Shown here piece after piece: positions 3,784 to 58,138 of a DNA stretch of 64,000 bases. The DNA lies in IMG/VR virus record IMGVR_UViG_3300010368_000009, positions 1 through 64,000 of that record; one strand, written 5' to 3'. Position 1 is the stretch's first letter. Each line of letters starts with the position of its first letter. The translations under genes and the position numbers were made by a program. This DNA comes from a virus. The notes below the pieces were generated by a model. The model did no database searches. It was not told the DNA's origin and saw only the letters and a list, made by a program, of their open reading frames with translations.

Positions 3784-6069
3784 TTAGAGGATACAAGATT
3801 CGCATTCTTCTTCATCTTCGATGACTTCTTGCGCATCCGCTTTGTTTTCTTCTTCGGCAGCATCATATGTATTTTGATAATACAAGGTTTTACCACCATA
3901 TTTGTAATGCTCAAGAATATCACCAATCATTTCAGTCATTGATAAAGAACCGTTTTCTCGCAGTTCTGGATTATAACTCACGTTGACCGAAATAGCTTGA
4001 TCGATGTATTTTTGTAGCACAGCTGTTATGTGCAAATATCCTTTTGGTGATACTTGATCCCATAACAGATCGTATTTGTTTTTGAGTTTGCCAATTTCAG
4101 GAACCACCTGCTTGAAAACACCATGCTTTGAAACCTTCTCAGACACAAGCGCCCTTGGTGGTTCAATGCCGTTGGTCGCATTAGCAATTTGAGCACTGGT
4201 TTCGCTAGGCATAAGTGCCATCACTGTAGCATTACGAATCCCATGCTCTTTCAACATGCCGCGAAGCCATTCCCAATCAACTCGCTCTTGGTGTGGAACT
4301 AATTGATCAACTGATTTTTTATAAGTGTCGATAGGTAGAATACCTTGAGCATATTTAGTGTGCTCAACCATAAGACAAGGACCGCGCTCAATAGCTAATT
4401 CCATTGACGCCTTGATCAGATGGAAGGACCATGCTTCTGCATATTCTTGTACGAGTTCCAAGGCATTGTCATCATAACGACAATCGTTCTTAGCCAAAAA
4501 GTATGCAAGATTGATCATACCAATACCAAGTGGGCGGTAATCCATAGTATGTTTCTTGGCCGCTAATACCGGGTAGTCTTGATAATCCAATAGGTTATCA
4601 AGTGCCCGAACCGTCAAACGCGCAATACGTTCAAATTGATCCGTTGATTTGATCTTTCCGAGATTGTGTGCAGATAGGGTACAAAGAGCGATCAACCCAT
4701 CAGGGTCTTCGATGCCTTGCATTGGTCTTGTTGGTTGCGTTATTTCAACACATAAATTGGTTTGTCTGATTGGTGCTACTTCTGGAATATATGAGCCATG
4801 TGAATTACAGTGATCGATGTTCTGAATATAGATACGACCAGTTTCTTTACGTTGGGTCATCAGGGTTGTAAAGAATTCAATCGCCGATATAGAATAACTA
4901 CGAATGGATGGATCGTTTTCGTATTTGGCATACAGGGACTCAAACAAATCATTATCACCAGCATGGAAAGCTTCGATCAATCCCGGTGCTTCGGATGGAG
5001 AGAAGAATGAAATATCACCACCCTTGATAAGACGGGTATACAGCAAGCGATTTGCTTGAACGCAATAATCCAACATACGGATACGATCTTTTTCAATACC
5101 CTTGGATGATTTGAGCATCACGAGAGATTCAAACTCAGCGTGCCAAAATGGATAAGTGATCGTTGCGGAGCCACCACGAATACCACCCTGTGAACAAGAC
5201 TTCACCGCACCCTGAAATGATCTAAGAAATGGCTGAAGTCCGGTAGATTCAGTTTCACCACCACGGATACCCGAGCCGACTGATCTAATAGGCCCAACAT
5301 CGATCCCTAAGCCTGCTCTACGTGAGATGTAACGGTAGATGGCTGACGTGGTAGCTTCGATGCTCATCATCGTGTCACCGGTCGCTATGAGGACACAGGA
5401 CGCAAATTGACGAGTAGGTGTTCTGACACCAGCCATCACCGGTGTTGGTAAAGAAATATCATGAAGGGAGATTGCATCATAATATTCCTTGATCCAAACC
5501 ATACGATCAATAGGTTCGTTAATAAACATGGTGGCGGCAATCATCAAATATGCGACCTGTGGTGTTTCGTGAAAAGTTTCATTCACCCGGTTCTTTACTA
5601 GATACTTTCCACGGAATTGTTCAACCGCTGCATACACCAACGAGAAATCACGATTATGTTTGATAATATTTTCAAACTCTTCAAACTCTTCGTCCGTGAA
5701 AGTCAAAAGACTCTTATCATAAACACCGAGCGTGACGTTACGTTCAACAATTTTACGAATAGGCCACGGTTCGTGTTCACCATAGAGTTCTTTCCGTAAT
5801 TGGTAGTTAACCAAGCGGGCCGCAACGTATTGATAATTAGGGGTATTTTCTGAAATCAAATCAGCCGCAGATCGGATCAGGGTGTTATGTATTTCAGATG
5901 TTTTGATACCGGTTGTAAATTGTAATTTGGCGCTTAGTTCAATTTTCGAAACAGATACACCGGTGATGTCTTCACACGCCCAGAATAATACTTTATGAAT
6001 TTTGTCTAGGTCTAGTGGTTCTTTAGAACCATTGCGCTTTGTTACGATTATATTAGAGGTAGTGGGCAT
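3784..6069 (-). CDS. nrdA: Ribonucleotide reductase class Ia alpha subunit
   Basis: ATP cone (VTKRNG), PTPVMAGVRT, SCVL, TNLCVEI, MPSETS, C-terminal CESC; GGAG RBS at ATG 6069. Confidence 0.97.
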   Translation of the reverse strand: MPTTSNIIVTKRNGSKEPLDLDKIHKVLFWACEDITGVSVSKIELSAKLQFTTGIKTSEIHNTLIRSAADLISENTPNYQYVAARLVNYQLRKELYGEHEPWPIRKIVERNVTLGVYDKSLLTFTDEEFEEFENIIKHNRDFSLVYAAVEQFRGKYLVKNRVNETFHETPQVAYLMIAATMFINEPIDRMVWIKEYYDAISLHDISLPTPVMAGVRTPTRQFASCVLIATGDTMMSIEATTSAIYRYISRRAGLGIDVGPIRSVGSGIRGGETESTGLQPFLRSFQGAVKSCSQGGIRGGSATITYPFWHAEFESLVMLKSSKGIEKDRIRMLDYCVQANRLLYTRLIKGGDISFFSPSEAPGLIEAFHAGDNDLFESLYAKYENDPSIRSYSISAIEFFTTLMTQRKETGRIYIQNIDHCNSHGSYIPEVAPIRQTNLCVEITQPTRPMQGIEDPDGLIALCTLSAHNLGKIKSTDQFERIARLTVRALDNLLDYQDYPVLAAKKHTMDYRPLGIGMINLAYFLAKNDCRYDDNALELVQEYAEAWSFHLIKASMELAIERGPCLMVEHTKYAQGILPIDTYKKSVDQLVPHQERVDWEWLRGMLKEHGIRNATVMALMPSETSAQIANATNGIEPPRALVSEKVSKHGVFKQVVPEIGKLKNKYDLLWDQVSPKGYLHITAVLQKYIDQAISVNVSYNPELRENGSLSMTEMIGDILEHYKYGGKTLYYQNTYDAAEEENKADAQEVIEDEEECESCIL

Positions 6070-17556: not shown

Positions 17557-17633
17557 GGCTGGTTAGCTTAATTGGTCAAAGTCGGAGCCTCTAAAACTCC
17601 CAGATATGGGTTCAAGTCCCATACCAGCCACCA
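17557..17633 (+). tRNA. Amber suppressor tRNA (anticodon CTA)
   Basis: GGCTGGT/ACCAGCC acceptor with ACCA; anticodon loop CTCTAAA (CTA at 17591-17593); T arm ATGGG-TTCAAGT-CCCAT; own TTGACA promoter. Confidence 0.85.
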
Positions 17634-23232: not shown

Positions 23233-23317
23233 GGGGATGTGGCGGAATTGGTAGACGCCCCAGATTTAGGTTCTGGTGTTGCAAGACGTGGGAGTTCGAG
23301 TCTCTCCATCCCTACCA
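23233..23317 (+). tRNA. tRNA-Leu(TAG)
   Basis: Leu-type D arm, loop TTTAGGT, V arm, ACCA end. Confidence 0.93.
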
Positions 23318-28686: not shown

Positions 28687-29817
28687 ATGATGAAAACTTA
28701 TCTGGTTGGCGGCGCTGTCCGTGATAGCATGATGAACCGGAAATCAAAGGACAACGATTTCGTTGTTGTTGGTTCCACTCCTGAACAAATGCTTTCCAAT
28801 GGTTTCACCAAGGTTGGTGCAGACTTTCCAGTCTTCCTTCATCCTGAAACCAAGGACGAATACGCACTGGCACGTCGCGAGCGCAAGACTGGTACGGGCT
28901 ACAACGGGTTTGAAGTTGTCTTTGATCCTTCGGTAACCCTGATCGAAGATTTGGCTCGTCGTGACCTGACCATCAATGCAATCGCTATGGATGACGATGG
29001 CGTGGTTGTTGATCCGTTTAACGGGCAACGTGATATCTATGATCGTGTTCTTCGTCCGGTTAGCCGCGAAGCATTTGCTGAAGACCCGGTTCGTGCTCTT
29101 CGTGTTCTTCGGTTCCTTGCCCGGTTTGGTAACAACTGGAAGATGGCTGATGAACTGGTCGAGCTGCTGGTTGATATGCGTGATTCAGGTGAGTTTGAAC
29201 ATCTGGTCAAGGAACGTGTTCTTGCTGAAATGATGAAGGCGATGTCAGAACCACATTGGTATCTCTTCTTCACCACCAAGATCATGGGTCGGCCACTGTT
29301 TGAAGAAATCATCGAACAGATGGTTCCGGTGAATTTTAAAGTCAACATGGGCCATCTTGACCTGTCACGCGCTGAGTTGATTCAGGTTAAACGAATAAAA
29401 ACCAACAAACATCGTTTTTCGTGTGCCGTTGAAATGGTTCATGGTTTCGAAGACCTGTTGAAGTTCCTGAAGGCATCAACTGCTACACATAATCAAGTCA
29501 AAGCTGACATGGCCATCCAATGTGTACACAGGGTATACTGGGGTGATAAAGTATCCCCGGCGGAAATGGCCAAAATAGCGGTCGATAAACTCGAACTGTT
29601 TGATGATCAAAGTCCGATTTTTCGTTTTGTTCAAAATCATGCTGATAACCAATTGGTATCGATGATGTTGAAAGCACGTGAAAAAGCCATGATGGTCAAA
29701 TTTCATAATGCTATACTGCCGGGTGACACGAACCAAGAAGCGGCACAACGTCTTCATGATTTTAGACTGGCGGTAATGTGTCGGGAAATAGCGAACGCTA
29801 CTGATAATGAAGTGTAA
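28687..29817 (+). CDS. cca: tRNA nucleotidyltransferase (class II CCA-adding enzyme)
   Basis: YLVGGAVRD, DNDFVV, EYALARRERK, DLARRDLTINAIA, EDPVRALR. Confidence 0.92.
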   Translation: MMKTYLVGGAVRDSMMNRKSKDNDFVVVGSTPEQMLSNGFTKVGADFPVFLHPETKDEYALARRERKTGTGYNGFEVVFDPSVTLIEDLARRDLTINAIAMDDDGVVVDPFNGQRDIYDRVLRPVSREAFAEDPVRALRVLRFLARFGNNWKMADELVELLVDMRDSGEFEHLVKERVLAEMMKAMSEPHWYLFFTTKIMGRPLFEEIIEQMVPVNFKVNMGHLDLSRAELIQVKRIKTNKHRFSCAVEMVHGFEDLLKFLKASTATHNQVKADMAIQCVHRVYWGDKVSPAEMAKIAVDKLELFDDQSPIFRFVQNHADNQLVSMMLKAREKAMMVKFHNAILPGDTNQEAAQRLHDFRLAVMCREIANATDNEV

Positions 29818-38239: not shown

Positions 38240-38507
38240 TAATAAGGTAAAACACAGTCGTATATTTGATCGACCAATTCATCTTTATATTCATATTGAT
38301 GTCCATGCTGGTATAAGTCAGAGTCGTATATTTGATATTATCCCTAGTCGGTGTGGGTATACGTGTGACGTGATTTTAATATATCATGGTGGGTTCGACC
38401 TCGTATTAAAAAACCGCTATTCTCCCCCTGAAGGATTACAGATTTTCAAACGATCAATGGTTCGTGGTAATTTTATAAAGCTTCCTACCAGTTTCAAGAT
38501 AAAATAA
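38220..38507 (+). CDS. Hypothetical protein
   Basis: ORF ending at the terminator; start uncertain. Confidence 0.4.
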   Translation: MRSSTIDNKVKHSRIFDRPIHLYIHIDVHAGISQSRIFDIIPSRCGYTCDVILIYHGGFDLVLKNRYSPPEGLQIFKRSMVRGNFIKLPTSFKIK

Positions 38508-38537
38508 AACCCGCTGGATTGCTCCAACGGGTTTTAT
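38504..38537. terminator. Bidirectional intrinsic terminator ending the Ro60 operon
   Basis: ATAAAACCCG...CGGGTTTTAT. Confidence 0.75.
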
Positions 38538-38556
38538 CTTTGTGGTGGTTCAGTAG

Positions 38557-40188
38557 TTACCGAACGAATTCAGCCATTACCGATGGTGCGTTAGCATCAA
38601 ATCCAACGATGTCGAGCATGCCCGGATCGTCTGGGTTAGCAATAGTGAACTCCGTTGCAGTCATACCAACAACAACCAGCTTTGCGTTGATGCCGGTCTT
38701 CTTGCGATAGTCACGAAGTGCTTCATGTGGATGAATGCCACCAGCCCATGTTTCATTATCCGTGTAGATAACAAAGACATCAACTTCAATACCATTATCC
38801 ATTGCATAAAGCATTGGTGCTGCGCAATCGGTTCCACCGAATGGAAGACCACTGACCTTGCTAATCACGCCACTAAGCGTTGACGCCCGGCCAAAGTTTA
38901 GTGGCGTGACACCACGATCACCTACCGAAGACGATCCACGACCCCAACCACCACGTGAAGGACTCGTGAAAGAAACAGTATGAGTAACCGGTTCTGTCTT
39001 CATTGTGATGAGAGCCATTGCAGCTGAAGCATCACGTGCAGTCAGATTGGTATTCATAATGTTTTCCCAACCCATTGAGCCGGAAACATCAAGTGCAAGC
39101 AGATGACGCTTTCCAGTAGGAACAACATTCTTGAAGGCCAACATAAATGCTTCTTCAAGAGCGGACGTAATGTTTCCATTAACATTCCATGTGTTATTAC
39201 CACGGAAACCCTTACCACTTTCGTAAGTCTTCAGAGCAAGAAGCACCGCCATTGGGTGGATACGTGACTTATGGATCAAATTTTGGTCCGTAAGACGACG
39301 CACTGCTTCTTGTTCAAACTCGGACATTGGCTTGAATAGATTGATCTTATCCGAAGACATATTTCCGAGATTACGGATCATAGCGGTCATTGGCATCTTA
39401 TCAAAAAGAGCTTCCCAAACCTTTGGTTCGTTCAACATTTCCGTTGGAAGTGCTTCACGAGGCAGGTTAGCGTTCTTGATCAGATCAATCGTTTCCTTCA
39501 CTGTTGCTGTCTTCACCATTTCGTATGCAGTGATGATAGCAGGCAGGTTAGCGGCATCTACTGGACGCCCGGACAGCCAACGGAAGAGCGAGTTACGCTC
39601 TGTGTCGTCTGTCTTAGGGTGTGCCAGACGAAGCAGGTCAAGGTGTGTCCAACCTTCGCGTTGACGATACTTCGTTGTCTGATAGGCAAGATCATCAACC
39701 GTTTGGTTGATATACCAATTACCGACAGCACGACGAAGCGCTGGACCCCAACCACGGAACTGTTCTATGAATTCCGCGAACTGGAACAGGTGTGTACCGA
39801 TACGAGCAACACGAGGCAGAGCCGCAAGAGCGTATGCAGCAACCTTTGGGTTAGCTGGATCACAAGCCATTGCGAGTGCAAACAGAGCTGCATCGTTACG
39901 ATATGCACGACCGTTAACAGAAACGTCAACAATAAGATCGACTGCACGGAAACCATTTTCAGCGATTGCCGTCTTCATGGAGTCTGCATTGCTAAGCGTG
40001 AGTTCACGAGCGGATGCATAATATGATGGTGCATCCGATCCAAGAATCAGGAATCGTTCAAGACGACCGAAGCTATCCAGCGTGAACGAATATCCGCCCG
40101 CGTTGTTTTCCGCCTGCTTAGGGGAAGCTGCTTCTGTTTGTGGGGTTTGTCGGTTACGAGTTCCGACATTCTTATATGCAGTTGCCAT
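38557..40188 (-). CDS. rsr: Ro60/TROVE-domain RNA-binding protein (Rsr)
   Basis: NNAGGY, RFLILGS, KYRQREGWTHLDLLRLAHP, MPMTAMIRNLG, vWA DVSGSM, GGTDC, VIYTDNET, DPGMLDIVGFD; GAAGGA RBS. Confidence 0.95.
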   Translation of the reverse strand: MATAYKNVGTRNRQTPQTEAASPKQAENNAGGYSFTLDSFGRLERFLILGSDAPSYYASARELTLSNADSMKTAIAENGFRAVDLIVDVSVNGRAYRNDAALFALAMACDPANPKVAAYALAALPRVARIGTHLFQFAEFIEQFRGWGPALRRAVGNWYINQTVDDLAYQTTKYRQREGWTHLDLLRLAHPKTDDTERNSLFRWLSGRPVDAANLPAIITAYEMVKTATVKETIDLIKNANLPREALPTEMLNEPKVWEALFDKMPMTAMIRNLGNMSSDKINLFKPMSEFEQEAVRRLTDQNLIHKSRIHPMAVLLALKTYESGKGFRGNNTWNVNGNITSALEEAFMLAFKNVVPTGKRHLLALDVSGSMGWENIMNTNLTARDASAAMALITMKTEPVTHTVSFTSPSRGGWGRGSSSVGDRGVTPLNFGRASTLSGVISKVSGLPFGGTDCAAPMLYAMDNGIEVDVFVIYTDNETWAGGIHPHEALRDYRKKTGINAKLVVVGMTATEFTIANPDDPGMLDIVGFDANAPSVMAEFVR

Positions 40189-40252
40189 AATATTATTTCC
40201 TTCTCTCTTATACTTTCTCTTTAATAAGACAATATAAGACGAAGCGGATATC

Positions 40253-40335
40253 TTAACGAGCAAATGAGTTGCAGTGGATATGGTTTGTCAAAGTATGAGT
40301 CTGATTATGATAATCCATTACATCCGGCACGTTAA
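40253..40335 (-). ncRNA. Y RNA-like unit 1 (nearest Ro60)
   Basis: 5' CGUGCCGGAUG / 3' AUUUGCUCG bulged helix; UUAUC motif. Confidence 0.75.
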
Positions 40336-40353
40336 TATTACTATATTACTAAT

Positions 40354-40499
40354 ATGGCTTTGTGAGCAAATGTATAGAAAATAGGGTTTAAGCGCTCTAC
40401 CGCTGAGCTACCAAGCCGCGAACGACCTGAGTTGGATTCGAACCAACGACCTCTCCATTACAAGTGGATAACCTATTTTCATCCGGCTCACAAAGCCAT
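40354..40499 (-). ncRNA. Y RNA-like unit 2, YrlA-type with permuted tRNA domain
   Basis: 14-bp terminal stem, GCCGGAUG, UUAUC, T arm, UUCG-capped acceptor, D arm. Confidence 0.85.
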
Positions 40500-40504
40500 T
40501 TTAG

Positions 40505-40651
40505 TAAGACGAGTAAATGAAATGACAAAGGGATAATATACAGTTGCGTCTACCAATTCCGCCACTCCCCGTTAGATTGGTCGGGGAGACAGGACTTGAA
40601 CCTGTAATACTCACTGTTCCTTAGATAACCCTAAATCTCCGACACGTCTTA
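40505..40651 (-). ncRNA. Y RNA-like unit 3, YrlA-type with Leu-like permuted tRNA domain
   Basis: GUGUCGGAG/AUUUACUC stem, UUAUC, T arm ACAGG-UUCAAGU-CCUGU, acceptor CUCCCCG/CGGGGAG, D arm GGCGGAAUUGGUAGACGC. Confidence 0.82.
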
Positions 40652-40682
40652 AATCATTTCCTTCTTTGTTCAGTCGTTAGTA

Positions 40683-40751
40683 GTTACGAGCAAATTGTTG
40701 AAAATGGGGGTTCATCAACAAAAGATAACCCACTCTCATCCGGCACGTAAC
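40683..40751 (-). ncRNA. Y RNA-like unit 4 (short)
   Basis: GUUACGUGCCGGAUG...GGGUUAUC...AUUUGCUCGUAAC. Confidence 0.78.
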
Positions 40752-40760
40752 CGCTTTAGT

Positions 40761-40828
40761 ACTGCGAGCAAATTGTTTGAAATGGGGGTTCATCGTTGCA
40801 AGATAACCCACTTCATCCGGCCCGCAGT
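40761..40828 (-). ncRNA. Y RNA-like unit 5 (short, near-duplicate of unit 4)
   Basis: ACUGCGGGCCGGAUG...GGGUUAUC...AUUUGCUCGCAGU. Confidence 0.78.
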
Positions 40829-40844
40829 CTTATTGCGATGTGGA

Positions 40845-40875
40845 TATACTTAAGGGTAATAATTCGGGGTGTCAA
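40845..40875 (-). promoter_or_regulatory. Sigma70-type promoter of the Y RNA-Ro60 operon
   Basis: TTGACA (40875-40870), 17 nt, TAAGTA on the minus strand. Confidence 0.6.
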
Positions 40876-40948
40876 ACGGTTTTATGATTTTTCTGCATTT
40901 TTCTCTTTTTTGTTGCACATGGAGTGAAACGTGCTATAAGTATTATCT

Positions 40949-43301: not shown

Positions 43302-43413
43302 GATTAATTTATAGCTGCAAAATTATAATTGACAAGGAAAATCATTCTGCCTATAAGTAATATTAACGAGACACTGCTGAAGGCGTCTTGGCTATAATAA
43401 CATGGAGTGTGTT

Positions 43414-44565
43414 ATGTCCAAACTAACAGGGGTTGATCCCCGTGCCGTATATAATGACGGAAAAATCCTAACCGATTCTCTCGGGCCGGATCAAAAGCAT
43501 GACCTGTTGGTATTCATTGGCCGTTTTCAGCCATTGCATTATGGACACATGCGAGTAATCGATATTGCTCTTACTCGCGCCAAGCAAACATTGATCTTGG
43601 TAGGTTCGGCAAATGTCGGACGAACTCTTTACAACACCTTTACATATCAAGAACGCTACGCGATGATTGCTTCCCAATATCAGGAAGCGATTGATGATGG
43701 CCGTCTTGTGCTTCGTCCACTGGATGATCACACCTACGCTGATGCCGATTGGCTCGAACAGGTTCAAGATATCGTTGAACACGATGTTCTCAAGAATAAA
43801 ACTGCAAAGACTATCAGTCTGATTGGTTGTGAGAAAGATCACACCAGTTATTACCTTGGTCTGTTTCCGCAGTGGGGCAACATTGGTGTTGAATTCAAGG
43901 TGCCGTTGAACAGTACTGATGTTCGCAAAGCTGTATTCCTTCAAAAGAATAGTTATAATCCCGGTCCCGGTTCTGGTCGCATCATTAATGAAGAATACGA
44001 GTTTATTCATAAAGCGTGTCCTCCTGAAATCGCACGGTTGCTGTATGCCTTTACGATGCGATCTGAGTATGAAGACATCAAAGAAGAATGGGGTTTTATC
44101 AACACGTATCGTAACAACCGCCAAAAAGGTAATGAATATCCCGTCATCGATCATACGGTTGATGCATGTGTTGTTCAGTCGGGTCACGTGTTGGTTGTTC
44201 AACGTCGCTGGCGTCCGGGTAAAGGACTGTTTGCTCTTCCGGGTGGCTTCCTTAATGAATTTGAACCGGTTGATCATGCCATCCTTCGGGAACTTCGTGA
44301 AGAAACTCAAATTGATGTGAGTGATACGGTTCTTCGTGCCGGTTTTGTGAAACGTGAACAGTTCAGTGATCCACGCCGGTCTGATCGTGGCCGCATCATT
44401 ACTGAGTGTGGTTTGTTCAAACTTCAAGATCGCGCCAAGCTTCCAACGGTTAAGGGTGCCGATGATGCCGCCTGTGCATTCTGGTTGCCATTGAATAAAG
44501 TTGATCCAAGTGCATTTTTTGAAGACCATGCATTCATCATTCGCAAACTGACAAAAGATTTGTGA
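43414..44565 (+). CDS. nadM: Bifunctional NMN adenylyltransferase / Nudix hydrolase
   Basis: IGRFQPLHYGH, NSTDVR, Nudix box LPGGF...RELREET, DPRRSDRGR, GADDA, FEDH. Confidence 0.93.
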   Translation: MSKLTGVDPRAVYNDGKILTDSLGPDQKHDLLVFIGRFQPLHYGHMRVIDIALTRAKQTLILVGSANVGRTLYNTFTYQERYAMIASQYQEAIDDGRLVLRPLDDHTYADADWLEQVQDIVEHDVLKNKTAKTISLIGCEKDHTSYYLGLFPQWGNIGVEFKVPLNSTDVRKAVFLQKNSYNPGPGSGRIINEEYEFIHKACPPEIARLLYAFTMRSEYEDIKEEWGFINTYRNNRQKGNEYPVIDHTVDACVVQSGHVLVVQRRWRPGKGLFALPGGFLNEFEPVDHAILRELREETQIDVSDTVLRAGFVKREQFSDPRRSDRGRIITECGLFKLQDRAKLPTVKGADDAACAFWLPLNKVDPSAFFEDHAFIIRKLTKDL

Positions 44566-44575
44566 GGAGAACACT

Positions 44576-44737
44576 ATGGAAGATGACACCTATCAAATCA
44601 TTCAAAAACTGAAAGATATGGTTGATGAAATCGATCTATATGAAATTGAAATCGCCGCTGCTCGCGAGCGTATCACACAGAACCGGCTGGTAATCAAAGC
44701 ATTGAAGGCCGAAACCGAAAAAGAAAAAGGAAATTAA
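44576..44737 (+). CDS. Small coiled-coil protein (53 aa, not in the ORF track)
   Basis: GAGGAG RBS; lies between nadM and nadV. Confidence 0.55.
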   Translation: MEDDTYQIIQKLKDMVDEIDLYEIEIAAARERITQNRLVIKALKAETEKEKGN

Positions 44738-44741
44738 TATC

Positions 44742-46205
44742 ATGACCATCATTGTAAACGTAAATGAAATCGAACGCATTCTTTCCAATCCGATTCTTAT
44801 GTCAGATTCGTATAAGTTTTCACATTGGAAGCAATACCCACAAAAATCTTTGTATGTGAATAGCTACATTGAATCTCGCGGCATGTGTACCGAATTGGTC
44901 AACAGTGGCCTCGACAACGAGTTGGTATTCTTTGGTATCCAAGGATTTATCAAGCGTTACCTGTCTCGCCAAATCACACCCCAACATATTGATGAAGCTG
45001 AAAAATTCTGCAAGAATCATGGTGAACCATTCAATCGTCGTGGCTTTGAAATAATCGTGAATGATTACAACGGCTATTACCCTGTCAGTATTCAGGCTAT
45101 TCCAGAAGGAACAGTCATCAGTGCACACAATGTTATGGTTCAAGTAATCAATACTGACTCTCGGTTGTACTGGTTGACCTCGTTTCTGGAAACTGCATTG
45201 CTTCGCGCCGTGTGGTATCCAGTTTCCGTGGCTACCAAGAGCCGGGAAATCAAAAAGGTTATTGCCAAATATATGGATGATACGGTTGGCAATCGTGATG
45301 GTTTGGAATTCAAACTTCATGATTTCGGTGCCCGTGGTGTTTCTTCTCAAGAATCGGCCATGATTGGTGGCGCTGCCCATCTGGTGAACTTCATGGGAAC
45401 TGATACCGTTGAAGCCGCTGTATGGCTCTCTGCACTGTATAGTGAGCCTATGGCCGGGTTCTCGGTGCCAGCCGCTGAGCATAGCACCACGACGACTTGG
45501 GGTGGACCGGAAGGCGAAGAAGCTAGTTTCTTGAATATGCTGGAACAATTCCAAGGCAACTACCCGATTATCTCGGTGGTATCTGATAGCTATGACATTT
45601 ACAATGCGATCACCAATCTTTGGGGTGGCACATTGAAGGAAGCTGTTATCGCTGCTTCAAAAATGGGTAGCAAGTTGGTCGTTCGTCCAGACAGTGGTGA
45701 TCCAACAACGGTTCCTATCGATTGTGTTAAACTACTGATGGAAGTCTTTGGATACACGACTAATGATCTTGGGTATAAGGTATTGCCACCATATATCGGT
45801 GTGCTTCAGGGTGATGGTATCAACATCAATTCCATTCGTGCCATTCTTGAAAACATGAAGCGTGCTGGACTGTCGGTGGAAAACATTGTGTTCGGTATGG
45901 GCGGTGAGTTGCTTCAGGGTCATATGCGTGATGATCACAAATTCGCCATGAAGGCTTCTGAGATTCGGGTTGGTGATGAAGTTCGGGATGTGTTCAAGCA
46001 GCCGGTTACGGATGCTATGAAAATTTCAAAGAAGGGTCGATTGGCACTTATTGAAACCAGCGGCGTTGGTTCTCGTGGCTACAACACATTGCGTGAATGT
46101 AATTTGGGCTACTTGGATAAAAACCTACTGCGGGAAATTTACCGTAATGGTGAAATTTTAATCGATGACACCTTTACAACCATTCGGAAGCGTGCCAGTA
46201 TCTGA
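44742..46205 (+). CDS. nadV: Nicotinamide phosphoribosyltransferase
   Basis: DSYKFSH, LHDFGARG, GTDT, PAAEHST, SVVSDSYD, RPDSGDP, QGDG, FGMGG. Confidence 0.95.
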   Translation: MTIIVNVNEIERILSNPILMSDSYKFSHWKQYPQKSLYVNSYIESRGMCTELVNSGLDNELVFFGIQGFIKRYLSRQITPQHIDEAEKFCKNHGEPFNRRGFEIIVNDYNGYYPVSIQAIPEGTVISAHNVMVQVINTDSRLYWLTSFLETALLRAVWYPVSVATKSREIKKVIAKYMDDTVGNRDGLEFKLHDFGARGVSSQESAMIGGAAHLVNFMGTDTVEAAVWLSALYSEPMAGFSVPAAEHSTTTTWGGPEGEEASFLNMLEQFQGNYPIISVVSDSYDIYNAITNLWGGTLKEAVIAASKMGSKLVVRPDSGDPTTVPIDCVKLLMEVFGYTTNDLGYKVLPPYIGVLQGDGININSIRAILENMKRAGLSVENIVFGMGGELLQGHMRDDHKFAMKASEIRVGDEVRDVFKQPVTDAMKISKKGRLALIETSGVGSRGYNTLRECNLGYLDKNLLREIYRNGEILIDDTFTTIRKRASI

Positions 46206-56177: not shown

Positions 56178-56350
56178 ATTCCATCGAAAGATGGAAACAT
56201 TAACTTGCGGTTGCTACAGTTCCTCACCTGAAGAGATAGGCCGGTAGCATTAAATTAAATGGATGCGTTCAGCCGTATTTTATACTTGACTTATAGAAAT
56301 TCAACCTGTATACAGATAATACAGAAACAACATACAAGGTAATAAACATC

Positions 56351-56497
56351 ATGGCAAAGCACGCATCTGGTAATACTCATGTCGTTGGTGTACGTAAGCG
56401 CACCAGCATTGGTAACTCCTTCCGTTCGGGCGACAAGTCCAAGAATGCGAAAAGCCGTAATGGTTCTCGCTTCACACGTGGTCAAGGTCGTCCGTGA
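56351..56497 (+). CDS. 48-aa basic peptide ending RGQGRP (not in the ORF track)
   Basis: Own TTGACT promoter and AAGG RBS; MAKHASGNTHVVGVRKRTSIGNSFRSGDKSKNAKSRNGSRFTRGQGRP. Confidence 0.65.
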   Translation: MAKHASGNTHVVGVRKRTSIGNSFRSGDKSKNAKSRNGSRFTRGQGRP

Positions 56498-56516
56498 ATA
56501 AAATGCAGTAACGGGG

Positions 56517-56625
56517 TTGACTTTATATAGATCGCCCTGTATAGTATAAATCATCGGCGGGGAGTTACTTCCTAGTAACTCCCCGCCGAAAGAATTGAAT
56601 GCTCTTTGACATTGTTGTGTGAAGC
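56517..56625 (+). promoter_or_regulatory. Promoter followed by an rrn-like antitermination leader (boxB hairpin, boxA, GT-rich boxC-like)
   Basis: TTGACT-17-TATAGT; perfect 16-bp hairpin at 56554-56589; TGCTCTTTGACA at 56600-56611. Confidence 0.65.
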
Positions 56626-57195
56626 TTAGAACAGCTTCCGTTGGAGCATCGGGATAGATACTCCTTGTTTAACGAAAATAAACACTGTTGTGCTATTGGC
56701 ATGGTATGATGGGTTCCGGTGTTTCATCGCAAGTTGTTCTAAAAGTTTGTTGACACAGATGCATGTGTTGTATTGGTGACCATAACCGGAGTACGGGGCG
56801 GAACTTTTACTGATCATTGCGGAATGCCTAGTTTAAATGGCGTGTGTCAAAGCCGGTGTCCCGTTTAAATCTGGGGATGTGACCGGCCTCGTCATCTTAC
56901 AAAAGAGAGTCCAAACGTTTTCTAGAAACGACAAAAACTCAGCTCTGGTGGCCACAGAGAACCGGATATTCTCTTAATAGAGATAGCTTCGGGTGACGAG
57001 ATATAGTTTTCGTGTACTGACTAGAGTGCACACAAGTTCCCTTCGGGGAAGGCATCTTATGGTGTCTTAGTGAATGGACTGACAAAAGAGAATATGGGCG
57101 GTAACCTGTAGGATCACAAATCAGTCGCCTTTACCGAGGAAAATCGGTTATTGTCATTCTGTTGGCATCACCACCAGAGTGGCTTACAGTCGGGA
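56626..57195 (+). ncRNA. Large multi-domain structured ncRNA candidate
   Basis: No credible ORF; consecutive closed helical domains and a UUCG tetraloop. Confidence 0.6.
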
Positions 57196-57197
57196 AT

Positions 57198-57326
57198 TAG
57201 TTTAGAGATGGGACGTAGCTCAATATGGTAGAGCTTCTTAATCCCGGCCACTTTGGAAAACGAACTGGTCCGGTAATGTCAAACGTTGTATGCGGGTTCG
57301 ATTCCCGTCGCCTGTCATCTAAACTA
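57198..57326 (+). ncRNA. tRNA-like element with D and T arms, expanded centre, no CCA
   Basis: TAGCTCAATATGGTAGAGC; GCGGG-TTCGATT-CCCGT; closing TAGTTTAGA/TCTAAACTA. Confidence 0.6.
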
Positions 57327-57357
57327 GCTGTTTCGTCCAAATGGACAACAATAACTA

Positions 57358-57442
57358 TGCGTGCCGACTTAGACACATAGTCCGTAATACAAATGAGTGT
57401 CTGGATACGGTTGTAATGGGTTCGACTCCCGGTAGGCATGCA
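57358..57442 (+). ncRNA. T-loop RNA with possible H-type pseudoknot
   Basis: TGCGTGCC/GGCATGCA closure; AGACAC/GTGTCT crossing CCGTA/TACGG; GGG-TTCGACT-CCC. Confidence 0.45.
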
Positions 57443-57453
57443 AATGATCTTAT

Positions 57454-57575
57454 AGTCGTTGGCTGTATTATCAGAAACAACACAAGGCCGTTGAGAATCC
57501 AGCGTGTTGTTTCTGGTAGGTGTCTAGATGGATATAGCTACCATCTAAGGAGTTCAAGTCTCTTAACGACTGCCA
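57454..57575 (+). ncRNA. CCA-ended tRNA-like RNA with 8/4 acceptor-T and a long central helix
   Basis: AGTCGTTG/TAACGACT-GCCA; T loop TTCAAGT; TTATCAGAAACAACAC/GTGTTGTTTCTGGTAG helix. Confidence 0.6.
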
Positions 57576-57736
57576 ATAATATCGAGTGAAGCACTGTCAT
57601 AACATAGTTCGCGCAGAGGCTTATTATTTCGGGCTGGTATACTGATGTGGAGTAGCGTAAGCTGACACCGATTAGTAATCAGTCAGGAATATACTCGGTA
57701 TTTTGTCAAGACAAATATACCTTATGATTATGGGGT

Positions 57737-57813
57737 TGATCGATAATGCTCAGTCTGGTAGAGCTTTCTTACAAAAACTAGGAAGGTCGTTGGTTCAAAT
57801 CCAACTCGGTCGC
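57737..57813 (+). ncRNA. Pseudo-tRNA (loop CAAAAAC, no CCA)
   Basis: D arm GCTCAGTCTGGTAGAGC; T arm GTTGG-TTCAAAT-CCAAC. Confidence 0.55.
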
Positions 57814-57821
57814 ATAAATAC

Positions 57822-57992
57822 TATCTATCAGTGCACGGGGTATGTGCACGCCTATATGTGAATCGCCCGTCCATCATCTGGTTACTGAGTAACAAGTAGG
57901 TAACAAATGGAGCAACGGGGGCAGTGAAGCAAGCGTTGAAAGTCGTCGAGGTTATGTAGACGATGGTTGGTTCGAATCCAATCTGATAGATA
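57822..57992 (+). ncRNA. Structured RNA with a terminal T arm
   Basis: TATCTATCAG/CTGATAGATA closure; TTGG-TTCGAAT-CCAA. Confidence 0.5.
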
Positions 57993-58138
57993 TAATGGTG
58001 GCGTCATCTAGGAGCGGTGAAGTGTGCGTTCCGGGTGTTGCAGGCATGCAAACCTATGCGGCAGTCCTTTTCCGAGGGCGAGTCGATTCTAGTCGTTTAA
58101 CGAGCGACATGGCACCCCATCATTAAACGAGAAACATA

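What the first reader, a model, noticed from the sequence alone, without database searches (positions are those of the whole stretch)
38557..40875. Phage Ro60 operon fed by a tandem array of five Y RNA-like genes
Seen: on the minus strand, one promoter (TTGACA at 40875) precedes five consecutive self-closing RNA units (40761-40828, 40683-40751, 40505-40651, 40354-40499, 40253-40335), then a full-length Ro60/TROVE gene and a terminator. Every unit has the same 5' GNGYCGGA and 3' AUUURCUC strands, which form a helix with a bulged C. Every unit also carries an upper G-rich stem followed by UUAUC. The outer stems differ in sequence but stay paired. Established: Ro60 binds the bulged-C helix of Y RNAs; UUAUC is the conserved loop motif of nematode stem-bulge RNAs and related Y RNAs; bacteria such as Salmonella (rsr-yrlBA-rtcBA) encode a small number of Y RNAs next to Ro60. 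Inference: this is a modular phage RNP system, with one protein and five interchangeable RNA adaptors. Two adaptors are tRNA mimics and three are short. They may act as decoys or tethers for host RNases or anticodon nucleases. No rtcB is adjacent in this window. Unit 1 lies about 65 nt before the start codon and could also give autoregulation.
Basis: partly seen in the sequence, partly recalled or inferred. Interest (0 to 1): 0.92.

Follow-up and report, generated by a model that had tools for sequence, protein, structure and literature searches.

The report
Phage Ro60 gene with five Y RNAs
An uncultured giant freshwater phage has a gene for the ring-shaped RNA-binding protein Ro60 preceded by five small "Y RNA" genes in a row; this protein-RNA pairing is already known in bacteria and phages, and I found such multi-RNA rows beside many phage Ro60 genes, so it is a clean new example and not a new kind of system.

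Summary
On the minus strand there is a promoter-like box (40848-40875), five stem-closed RNA units (40253-40828), a full-length Ro60/TROVE+vWA gene (38557-40188) and a strong terminator hairpin (38501-40). All five units share GNGYCGGA...GGUUAUC...AUUURCUC.

Units 3 and 4 (my U1-U5 run 5' to 3' on the minus strand) carry permuted tRNA-like modules of the YrlA type. Units 1, 2 and 5 are short hairpins of the YrlB type.

A covariance model built from the five units finds nothing else in the phage record. In 77 other viral Ro60 loci it finds 190 further units, 189 of them on the Ro60 strand, with strong covariation. 62 of the 77 loci have at least one unit, 37 have three or more, and the maximum is seven. 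Unrelated viral DNA gives none.

The closest relative (75% Ro60 identity) is syntenic with four units.

Phage Ro60 with Y RNAs is published (Chen 2014; Thermus phage phiLo 2025), and this scan has noted similar arrays on other DNA. The functional ideas (decoys, autoregulation) are untested. Expression evidence is weak: metatranscriptome contigs only.

Verdict: new member of a known kind, moderate interest.

The parts
40848..40875 (-). Promoter-like box TTGACA-N17-TAAGT(ATATC), upstream of the array
   Evidence: Read. The motif class TTGACA-N14-20-TAAGT occurs 5 times in the window against 0.34 expected, with 0 of 100 shuffles reaching 5; all five lie just upstream of genes. The box is conserved in the 75%-identical relative L121 at 1929-1960. 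It was not called by the generic sigma-70 scan.
40761..40828 (-). U1: short Y RNA (YrlB-like). Terminal stem, bulged C, GGA/UUU, upper stem GAAGUGGG/CCCAUUUC, then UUAUC paired with GAUGA, closed by a 7-nt loop.
   Evidence: R1 85.4 bits. Fold z = -4.4. Rfam stem-bulge RNA family RF01656 35.6 bits, E = 2e-5, below the gathering score of 38.
40683..40751 (-). U2: short Y RNA, a near-duplicate of U1 with a different terminal stem
   Evidence: R1 79.3 bits. Fold z = -3.8. RF01656 31.2 bits. L121 has a single unit in the place of U1+U2.
40505..40651 (-). U3: YrlA-type Y RNA. Ro-binding stem (GUGUCGGA/UUUACUC) carrying a closing stem, T arm, 7-bp acceptor-like stem whose loop reads ACCA plus 6 nt, and a Leu-type D arm.
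   Evidence: R1 59.1 bits. YrlA RF02553 15.1 bits over the whole model. The cloverleaf-type fold lies 1.4 kcal/mol above the minimum free energy. A 20-nt D-arm stretch is identical to the phage tRNA-Leu(UAG) at 23233-23317.
40354..40499 (-). U4: YrlA-type Y RNA. 12-bp terminal stem, 9-bp upper stem, UUAUC, anticodon-arm-like 'V' hairpin (loop CUUGUAA), T arm, 7-bp acceptor-like stem closed by a 6-nt loop, D arm.
   Evidence: R1 63.6 bits. YrlA RF02553 28.4 bits, E = 8e-4. The minimum-free-energy fold is the multi-hairpin fold, z = -4.4. The loop equals the anticodon loop of the phage tRNA-Thr(UGU), but the same loop recurs in four other phage loci.
40253..40335 (-). U5: short Y RNA with a larger apical region, ending 65 nt before the Ro60 start codon
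   Evidence: R1 73.4 bits. RF01656 31.4 bits. Fold z = -2.1. Its orthologue in L121 lies at 2373-2448.
40189..40252 (-). Ro60 5' leader with Shine-Dalgarno AGAAGGA (40198-40204)
   Evidence: Read. The sequence GAGAAGGAAA before the ATG is conserved in L121.
38557..40188 (-). Ro60 (Rsr) gene, 543 aa: TROVE/HEAT ring plus vWA domain with MIDAS DVSGS
   Evidence: The KYRQR...H stretch is invariant among 11 close homologues. The closest homologue is 75% identical and lies on a 335-kb viral contig.
38501..38540 (-). Intrinsic terminator: GC-rich hairpin followed by UUUUAUUUU
   Evidence: Fold -27.6 kcal/mol, z = -6.9, 0 of 200 shuffles as stable.

Best explanation
This is a Ro60/Y-RNA operon of an uncultured jumbo phage. 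The record is 101 kb, CheckV estimates it as 30% complete, and the same protein also sits on a 317-kb contig.

Transcription and processing (inferred).
- One phage promoter drives a precursor that holds five Y RNAs followed by the Ro60 mRNA.
- Host RNases cut the precursor into separate RNAs. This processing step is known for M. smegmatis YrlA and YrlB.

Binding (inferred from homology and covariation).
- Each RNA docks on the outer face of the Ro60 ring through the same module.
- That module is the terminal helix G-N-G-Y-[bulged C]-G-G-A paired with U-U-U-R-C-U-C, then an upper stem, then GGUUAUC.

The variable parts.
- U3 and U4 carry permuted tRNA-like domains of the YrlA class.
- U1, U2 and U5 are simple hairpins with small pyrimidine-rich or irregular loops, of the YrlB class.

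Likely function (inferred only by analogy).
- The variable heads gate the Ro60 cavity and tether Ro60 to different RNA-handling proteins. Host PNPase is the best precedent.
- The phage would thereby redirect structured-RNA decay or RNA quality control during infection.
For: Protein.
- TROVE and vWA_Ro60 domains are present.
- The protein aligns end to end with D. radiodurans Rsr, human Ro60 and Xenopus Ro60.
- The KY(R/K)QR and RL.H stretches are conserved.

RNA units in the window.
- The five units share the module and fold as predicted.
- The Rfam YrlA consensus has the same layout: lower stem, CGAAUG, upper stem, CUAc, then T arm, acceptor-like stem and D arm.
- Chen 2014 describes the GNCGAA motif, a conserved YUAY, the V, T, AS and D stem-loops, and co-transcription upstream of rsr.

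Comparative evidence.
- Model R2 finds 190 further units in 62 of 77 other viral Ro60 loci. 189 of them are on the Ro60 strand and most lie directly upstream of the gene.
- 91% of cells are paired, against 31-47% with slid partners. 19 of 20 pairs show changes on both sides.
- The bulged C is present in 62 of 63 aligned units.

Specificity control.
- I took 80 viral loci chosen only by a chance 15-nt motif match.
- Matches fell in the three loci that encode Ro60 and in two others. One of those two ends 45 nt after its match.
- The other 75 loci (most of the 726 kb searched) gave none.

Synteny.
- The relative L121 keeps the promoter box and units 2 to 5, with wholly different but still paired terminal stems.

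Single transcription unit.
- No terminator-like site lies between the units.
- A strong terminator follows the gene.

Precedent for function.
- Thermus phage phiLo Ro60 binds two upstream Y-like RNAs and forms a complex with host PNPase in vitro (PMC12135203).
Against: - No experiment shows that these RNAs exist as discrete species or bind this protein.
- The only RNA-library evidence is 100%-identical contigs of one metatranscriptome over 40258-40794 and parts of the gene. That could be carried-over DNA, and contigs cannot show RNA ends.
- U3 and U4 score far below the YrlA gathering threshold: 15 and 28 bits against 69.
- The covariation counts come from an alignment fitted to the model, and from loci that are not independent of one another.
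- The host, and hence the partner enzyme, is unknown. The closest cultured phages share only 27-37% identity in RIIA.
Confidence: 0.8

Rival explanations
1. Counter-defence decoy reading. The tRNA-like heads (U3 Leu-like, U4 with a Thr-type anticodon-like loop) would be presented on Ro60 as baits or shields against host nucleases that cut tRNAs or other RNAs. The Ro60 particle would therefore serve mainly as an anti-defence device, not in RNA decay.
For: - The locus sits inside the phage's dispersed tRNA gene region, with 16 tRNAs in the window and a phage CCA-adding enzyme at 28687-29817.
- The hairpin before the T arm has anticodon-loop form (Y-U-N-N-N-R-A) in U4, in its L121 orthologue with a different triplet, and in many other phage units.
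- A preprint reports that a Ro60-like protein of phage Bas63, next to its tRNA genes, counters the Ppl defence system (PMC11482910).
Against: - It explains nothing about the three short units.
- No defence target is known for this host.
- The loop CUUGUAA recurs in unrelated phages. It therefore looks like a conserved YrlA feature and not a copy of this phage's own tRNA.
- This reading is compatible with the main explanation and does not exclude it.
Confidence: 0.12
2. Leader reading. The five structures are mainly a long structured 5' leader of the Ro60 mRNA, to which Ro60 binds to control its own translation or stability. They would not be free-standing RNAs.
For: - The units share strand and transcription unit with the gene, and U5 ends 65 nt from the ATG.
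- In most related loci a unit ends 40-130 nt before the Ro60 start.
Against: - In 10 of the 77 loci, units lie downstream of Ro60 (23 units in all). In Gordonia phage GMA2 one unit lies downstream of the gene.
- In M. smegmatis such upstream units are processed to stable Ro-bound RNAs (PMC4201824).
- tRNA-like heads with conserved T and D loops are not needed for a simple operator.
Confidence: 0.06
3. Relic reading. The units are decayed tRNA genes or tandem-tRNA junctions with no link to Ro60.
For: - U3's acceptor-like loop reads discriminator A, CCA and a 6-nt spacer. That is what a junction of two tandem tRNA genes looks like, and the phage has such junctions with 6-10-nt spacers.
- Chen 2014 warns that tRNA dimers can mimic YrlA.
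Against: - Three units have no tRNA part at all, yet share the same flanking module.
- The module covaries and tracks Ro60 across 62 loci. It is absent from the 75 control loci that gave no match.
- tRNA ancestry of the heads explains their origin. It does not argue against function.
Confidence: 0.02

Closest known systems
Bacterial Rsr (Ro60) with YrlA and YrlB Y RNAs (S. Typhimurium, M. smegmatis; Rfam RF02553; Chen et al. 2014, PMC4201824)
   Same: - Ro60 orthologue with Y RNAs on the same strand within 1 kb. In M. smegmatis both RNAs lie upstream and come from one precursor.
- The module is the same: terminal stem, GNCGAA-type strand, upper stem, YUAY.
- One class has a permuted tRNA-like domain (V, T, AS, D). 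[quoted passage not shown]
   Different: - Five RNAs here, against two.
- The 5' strand reads GYCGGA where the bacterial motif reads G.CGAA.
- GGUUAUC replaces CUAY.
- U3 and U4 are below the Rfam threshold.
- No rtcBA or RtcR lies nearby.
- The genome is a phage genome.
Thermus phage phiLo Ro60 with Yrl1 and Yrl2 (PMC12135203, 2025), and mycobacteriophage Ro with YrlA (Chen 2014)
   Same: - A phage-encoded Ro60 with Y-like RNAs directly upstream.
- In vitro, phiLo Ro60, its Yrl RNA and host PNPase form a RYPER-like complex.
- I find three unannotated units upstream of Ro in Mycobacterium phage InterFolia and two in Gordonia phage GMA2.
   Different: - Two or three RNAs there, five here.
- The Ro60 proteins are only 43-47% identical to actinophage ones.
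- This phage is a T4-like-gene-bearing jumbo phage from fresh water with no cultured relative.
D. radiodurans Rsr-Yrn1-PNPase machine (RYPER)
   Same: - A Ro60 ring. 2nvo is the best solved match at 1.6e-112.
- A Y RNA with a T-arm-like element.
- Several Y RNAs encoded upstream of rsr.
   Different: - PNPase tethering is only assumed here.
- No phage PNPase was looked for beyond the two family searches I ran.
Metazoan Y RNAs and nematode stem-bulge RNAs (Rfam RF01656 ceN72-3_ceN74-2)
   Same: - Bulged-C helix formed by the RNA ends, a G-rich upper stem, and UUAUC right after it.
- U1, U2 and U5 match RF01656 at E = 2e-5 to 3e-4.
- From my own memory, human Y4 has a very similar 5' run.
   Different: - Scores are below the gathering threshold (35.6 against 38).
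- Rfam's vertebrate Y_RNA model did not match at E <= 10.
- No RF01656 match was listed at E <= 0.01 in four other phage loci.
- The resemblance fits shared Ro60-binding constraints and does not show membership.

Membership tests
Ro60 / TROVE family | TROVE (HEAT-repeat ring) domain followed by a vWA domain with a MIDAS motif | tested here: met
   PF05731 1.8e-41 and PF25045 2.8e-62. DVSGS with downstream GGTDC and TDNET.
Ro60 / TROVE family | Full-length homology to structurally solved Ro60 proteins | tested here: met
   2nvo 1.6e-112 over residues 14-543; 9nen 4e-103; 1yvp 2e-100.
Ro60 / TROVE family | Binds Y RNA on the outer surface and misfolded RNA in the cavity | not testable with these tools
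   Only residue conservation is available: K173, R177 and H190 align with the KYKQR and RLSH stretches of vertebrate Ro60. Their roles are recalled from memory, not tested.
YrlA (Rfam RF02553) | Score at or above Rfam's gathering threshold (69 bits) | tested here: not met
   U4 28.4 bits (partial model) and U3 15.1 bits. Orthologous and analogous phage units reach 35-44 bits.
YrlA (Rfam RF02553) | Order of elements: terminal stem with GNCGAA-type 5' strand, upper stem, YUAY, (V), T arm, acceptor-like stem-loop, D arm, return strands | tested here: met
   definition from PMC4201824. The motif is the variant GYCGGA. In related phage units it is GCCGAA or GCCGGA.
YrlA (Rfam RF02553) | Encoded within 4 kb of Ro60 on the same strand | tested here: met
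   All five units lie 65-640 nt upstream on the same strand.
Y RNA (general) | Terminal helix formed by the 5' and 3' ends, with a conserved bulged C, supported by covariation | tested here: met
   91% of cells paired. 19 of 20 pairs have changes on both sides. Slid controls give 31-47%. The C is present in 62 of 63 units. Caveat: the alignment is fitted to the model.
Y RNA (general) | Exists as a discrete stable small RNA bound by Ro60 | tested here: inconclusive
   Contigs of one metatranscriptome run cover 40258-40794 at 100% identity. Contigs show no ends, and DNA carry-over cannot be excluded.
Nematode stem-bulge RNA (RF01656) | Score at or above the gathering threshold (38 bits) | tested here: not met
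   35.6, 31.4 and 31.2 bits. This is a resemblance, not membership.
rsr-yrlBA-rtcBA RNA repair operon | RtcB ligase and RtcA cyclase adjacent to rsr | tested here: not met
   No PF01139 (RtcB) or PF09414 (RNA ligase) match in the 101-kb record. The record is about 30% of the genome, so absence from the whole phage is not shown.
RYPER (Ro60-Y RNA-PNPase) | The Y RNA tethers Ro60 to PNPase | not testable with these tools
   The host is unknown, and the complex predictor takes no RNA chain.

The most novel reading that the evidence does not exclude
The array would be a set of exchangeable heads on one Ro60 handle, and the tRNA-like heads would be working pseudo-tRNAs.

- U3 and U4 have full 7-bp acceptor-like stems. 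In U3 the loop reads A-CCA plus a 6-nt spacer.
- RNase P and 3' trimming, or the phage's own CCA-adding enzyme, could therefore open the loop. The product would be a two-piece, Ro60-bound RNA with a tRNA-Leu-like acceptor end.
- U4 would display a Thr-type anticodon-like loop.
- Such particles could occupy or divert host tRNA-handling or tRNA-cutting enzymes during infection, among them synthetases, modification enzymes and anticodon nucleases.
- The number and kind of heads would then track the host's defences.
Probability: 0.12. Interest if true: 0.75.

Novelty: new member of a known kind. Interest (0 to 1): 0.4.

Why it matters
Why organisms keep several Y RNAs for one Ro60 is still an open question. 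This locus is one of many phage loci that line up three to seven different Y RNAs on one promoter, and that gives natural variation to work with:
- one constant docking module with strong covariation;
- heads that are swapped, duplicated (U1/U2) or rebuilt from tRNA parts.

The practical gains are modest:
- a covariance model that finds short, YrlB-like Y RNAs, which Rfam does not cover;
- evidence that cultured phages (Mycobacterium phage InterFolia, Gordonia phage GMA2) carry unannotated units and could serve as test systems.

It does not reveal a new kind of system.

Tried and rejected
- Megablast of the locus against 50,697 phage records gave no match.
- A DNA-pattern scan of IMG/VR with part of the motif returned mostly chance single matches. 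I later reused those loci as a negative control.
The loci of the 59-74% identical Ro60 homologues P0003-P0008 could therefore not be fetched. Only the 75% relative (L121) and more distant loci were compared.
- The reviews PMC10870794 and PMC6047535 are not held, and the supplements of Chen 2014 are not held. I could not check how many Y RNAs per phage those authors list.
- Reads:
  - All runs were contigs, so no RNA ends, strand or level could be read.
  - Parts of the stretch without cover in the RNA run (38958-39897, and above 40838) say nothing.
  - The 8-letter loose end at 40794 matches the U2 sequence. I read it as an assembly switch between the U1 and U2 repeats.
- The generic sigma-70 and terminator scan found neither the promoter nor the terminator. 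Both were then supported by other means.
- Rfam's vertebrate Y_RNA model gave no match at E <= 10.
- TAG recoding: in-frame TAG read-through joins no long ORFs, so I see no sign of recoding despite the suppressor tRNA.
- NCCA in the acceptor-like loop is not a general feature: 3 of 65 T-arm-bearing units.
- The idea that U4's loop was copied from this phage's own tRNA-Thr is weakened, because the same 7-nt loop is found in four other phage loci.
- Complex prediction was not used, because it takes no RNA chain.
- No structure prediction was run, because sequence matches to solved Ro60 are already decisive.
Full report
**What is in the sequence**

Unit numbers U1-U5 run 5' to 3' on the minus strand. 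That strand of 38490-40880 reads, in order:
- a TTGACA box at 40875;
- five stem-closed units, U1 40761-40828, U2 40683-40751, U3 40505-40651, U4 40354-40499 and U5 40253-40335;
- a Shine-Dalgarno sequence and the ATG at 40188;
- a 543-codon ORF that ends at 38557;
- a GC-rich hairpin with a U-tract.

MAFFT aligns the five units with invariant blocks at both ends. The 5' block reads G-N-G-Y-C-G-G-A. A G-rich stem strand follows, then GGUUAUC. On the 3' side come the return strand of that stem and A-U-U-U-R-C-U-C.

The ends pair as G-C, Y-R, a bulged C, then GGA with UUU. The Y-R pair is C-G in four units and U-A in U3. The outer stems all differ and are all paired.

Single-sequence folding gives this architecture. 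Z-scores are -4.4 (U1), -3.8 (U2) and -4.4 (U4), and weaker for U5 (-2.1) and U3 (-1.4). For U3 the cloverleaf-type fold lies only 1.4 kcal/mol above the minimum free energy. For U4 it is the minimum itself.

A covariance model built from the five units (R1) scores them 59-85 bits. It finds nothing else in the window or in the whole 101-kb record.

**The protein**

- The ORF has Pfam TROVE and vWA_Ro60 domains.
- It aligns from end to end with D. radiodurans Rsr (1.6e-112) and with human and Xenopus Ro60.
- The MIDAS motif DVSGS is present.
- The KYRQR...RLAH stretch is invariant among eleven close homologues. From memory, this stretch holds residues used in Y-RNA-binding and cavity mutants of vertebrate Ro60.
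- 365 cultured-phage records encode a homologue at no more than 48% identity. These are mainly actinophages annotated "Ro-like RNA binding protein".

**The genome around it**

- The record is an IMG/VR viral contig that CheckV estimates as 30% complete. The identical protein also sits on a 317-kb contig.
- The window holds 16 tRNA genes, all on the plus strand and all with encoded CCA.
- It also holds a tRNA nucleotidyltransferase, RIIA/RIIB, NrdA, topoisomerase II and NAD-salvage genes.
- No cultured phage is close: RIIA is 27-37% identical at best.
- Runs that hold the DNA come from aquatic and freshwater metagenomes.
- No RtcB or RNA ligase is in the 101 kb.

**What the units are**

The tRNA-like units, U3 and U4:
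- In a permissive Rfam search, U4 and U3 match YrlA at 28.4 and 15.1 bits, against a gathering score of 69.
- The YrlA consensus shown against an orthologous unit has the same plan as these units. That plan is lower stem, CGAAUG, upper stem, CUAc, then T arm, acceptor-like stem and D arm.
- Chen et al. 2014 define YrlA by the GNCGAA motif, a conserved YUAY, and V, T, AS and D stem-loops (PMC4201824).
- U3 and U4 have all of these. U3 has a closing stem, T arm, a 7-bp acceptor-like stem and a Leu-type D arm. Twenty nucleotides of that D arm are identical to the phage's tRNA-Leu(UAG).
- U4 has in addition a 4-bp hairpin with the 7-nt loop CUUGUAA in the V position.

The short units, U1, U2 and U5:
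- They match a nematode stem-bulge RNA family, which is a Y RNA homologue, at 31-36 bits. E-values run from 2e-5 to 3e-4, just under the gathering score of 38.
- They lack any tRNA part.
- In U1 and U2, UUAUC pairs with GAUGA under a 7-nt U-rich loop. [quoted passage not shown]

**Comparative test**

- I fetched 80 viral loci that encode Ro60 relatives and searched them with R1.
- An alignment of 63 matches gave a broader model, R2.
- R2 finds 195 units at E <= 0.01 in the window plus 77 non-duplicate loci. 194 of them are on the Ro60 strand.
- Most lie directly upstream of the gene. 23 lie downstream, in ten loci.
- 62 of the 77 loci have at least one unit and 37 have three or more.
- Five loci have five units, two have six, and three (L126, L130, L180) have seven. 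These counts are lower bounds, because only 2.5 kb of flank was held.
- Lengths fall into two groups, about 69-94 nt and about 115-190 nt. 82 units are long, and 65 of those have a canonical T arm.

Covariation on the 63-row alignment:
- 91% of cells form standard pairs, against 31-47% when partners are slid.
- 19 of 20 pairs show changes on both sides.
- The bulged C is present in 62 of 63 rows, and G-UUA-C of GGUUAUC in 62-63 of 63.
- Two caveats apply. The alignment is fitted to the model. The search model itself contains the motif, so units that lack it would be missed.

Control:
- I searched 80 viral loci (726 kb) that had been picked only by a chance match to 15 nt of the motif.
- R2 matched in five of them. 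Three are exactly the three that encode Ro60, with units upstream on the same strand.
- One locus ends 45 nt after its match. One (L046) has a lone unit with no Ro60 in 14.7 kb.
- The other 75 loci have none.

**Closest relative**

- L121 carries a Ro60 that is 75% identical, on a 335-kb contig.
- It has the same divergent tRNA-Met, the same box (TTGACACCCC ... TAAGTATATC) and four units in the same order. They are a short unit, a Leu-type long unit with GUCGGAG, a long unit with a V hairpin, and a short unit.
- U1 and U2 of the window therefore look like a lineage-specific duplication.
- Terminal stems of orthologous units differ at nearly every position and yet remain fully paired, for example U4 against L121 2209-2356.
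- The V-hairpin loop keeps anticodon-loop form, but the middle triplet differs: UGU in the window, UAC in L121.

**Transcription unit**

- The box is not a canonical sigma-70 promoter, and the generic scan missed it.
- TTGACA-N17-19-TAAGT occurs five times in the window, against 0.34 expected. Each copy lies just upstream of a gene or tRNA. It therefore looks like this phage's own promoter class.
- No terminator-like site lies between the units.
- The hairpin after the stop codon is very stable, z = -6.9.
- One metatranscriptome run holds 100%-identical contigs over 40258-40794 and over parts of the gene. This is a weak hint of expression and nothing more.

**How it most likely works**

- Shown: the anatomy, the protein family, the association with Ro60 and the covariation.
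- Inferred from characterised relatives: the precursor is cut into separate RNAs, and each docks on Ro60 through the shared helix.
- Inferred from characterised relatives: the variable heads gate the ring or tether it to other proteins. The precedents are PNPase in D. radiodurans and S. Typhimurium, and in vitro for Thermus phage phiLo (PMC12135203).
- Speculative: the 7-bp acceptor-like stems of U3 and U4 predict RNase P sensitivity. Chen et al. named a 7-bp stem as the reason why M. smegmatis YrlA is cleaved and then receives CCA.
- Speculative: U3's loop already reads A-CCA plus a 6-nt spacer, like a junction of two tandem tRNA genes. This suggests how such heads arise. The feature is rare, at 3 of 65 units.
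- Speculative: a defence-related role is possible. A Ro60-like protein of phage Bas63 is reported to counter the Ppl system (PMC11482910). Nothing here tests it.

**Comparison and novelty**

- Phage Ro60 genes, phage YrlA RNAs and a phage Ro60 with two upstream Y-like RNAs are all published. So is co-transcription of two Y RNAs upstream of rsr.
- What I did not find in the papers I could read is a description of arrays of three to seven units in phages, or a family model for the short class. Two key reviews and the 2014 supplements were not available to me.
- This scan has already noted many similar arrays on other DNA. Other readers of this same genome noted the permuted tRNA details.
- I therefore file this as a new member of a known kind: a well-formed five-unit Ro60/Y-RNA operon in a novel jumbo phage.
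- It is useful as comparative material and is not a new system.

Noticed in passing
window 17557-17633 (+): A tRNA with anticodon CUA (amber suppressor; ARAGORN calls it Pyl) lies among the phage tRNAs. TAG ends only 4 of 50 long ORFs, but reading TAG through joins no long ORFs, so I see no sign of recoding.
   Followed up: partly
window 14413, 28162, 37905, 43329 (+) and 40875 (-): A phage promoter-like motif class, TTGACA-N17-19-(TA)TAAGT, occurs five times against 0.34 expected. Each copy lies just upstream of a gene or tRNA.
   Followed up: partly
window 28687-29817 (+): A phage-encoded tRNA nucleotidyltransferase (CCA-adding enzyme; PHROG 2244, 1.2e-88), although all 16 phage tRNAs already encode CCA. 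It may be relevant to tRNA repair or to the tRNA-like Y RNAs.
   Followed up: no
window 43402-46205 (+): An NAD-salvage pair: an NMN adenylyltransferase/NUDIX fusion and a nicotinamide phosphoribosyltransferase, as found in several large phages.
   Followed up: no
window 56178-58138: About 2 kb after two tRNA genes holds no ORF of 100 aa or more. Other readers of this genome flagged it as a non-coding RNA region. The Y-RNA models R1 and R2 find nothing there.
   Followed up: no
L190:1035-1180, L184:844-990, L143:4470-4620, L126:1923-2072, L130:1593-1738: In several other phage arrays the head inside the Ro-binding stem is laid out in normal tRNA order (hairpin, D arm, anticodon-like arm, T arm). 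This differs from the permuted YrlA order.
   Followed up: partly
L046:11416-11490 (-): A single good Y-like unit (41.9 bits) on a 44.6-kb viral contig, with no Ro60 homologue in the 14.7 kb held. It may be an orphan Y RNA, or Ro60 may lie further away.
   Followed up: no
L208:2063-2418 (Mycobacterium phage InterFolia) and L207:2262-2341, 4829-4907 (Gordonia phage GMA2): Unannotated Y-like units lie beside the Ro-like gene of cultured phages: three upstream in InterFolia, and one upstream plus one downstream in GMA2, just before its tRNA array.
   Followed up: partly
window 40649-40664 (-): Between U2 and U3, the sequence GAAGGAAAUGAUUUAA repeats the Ro60 ribosome-binding context (GAAGGAAAU) and is followed by AUG-AUU-UAA. 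It is probably chance and is not conserved in L121.
   Followed up: no
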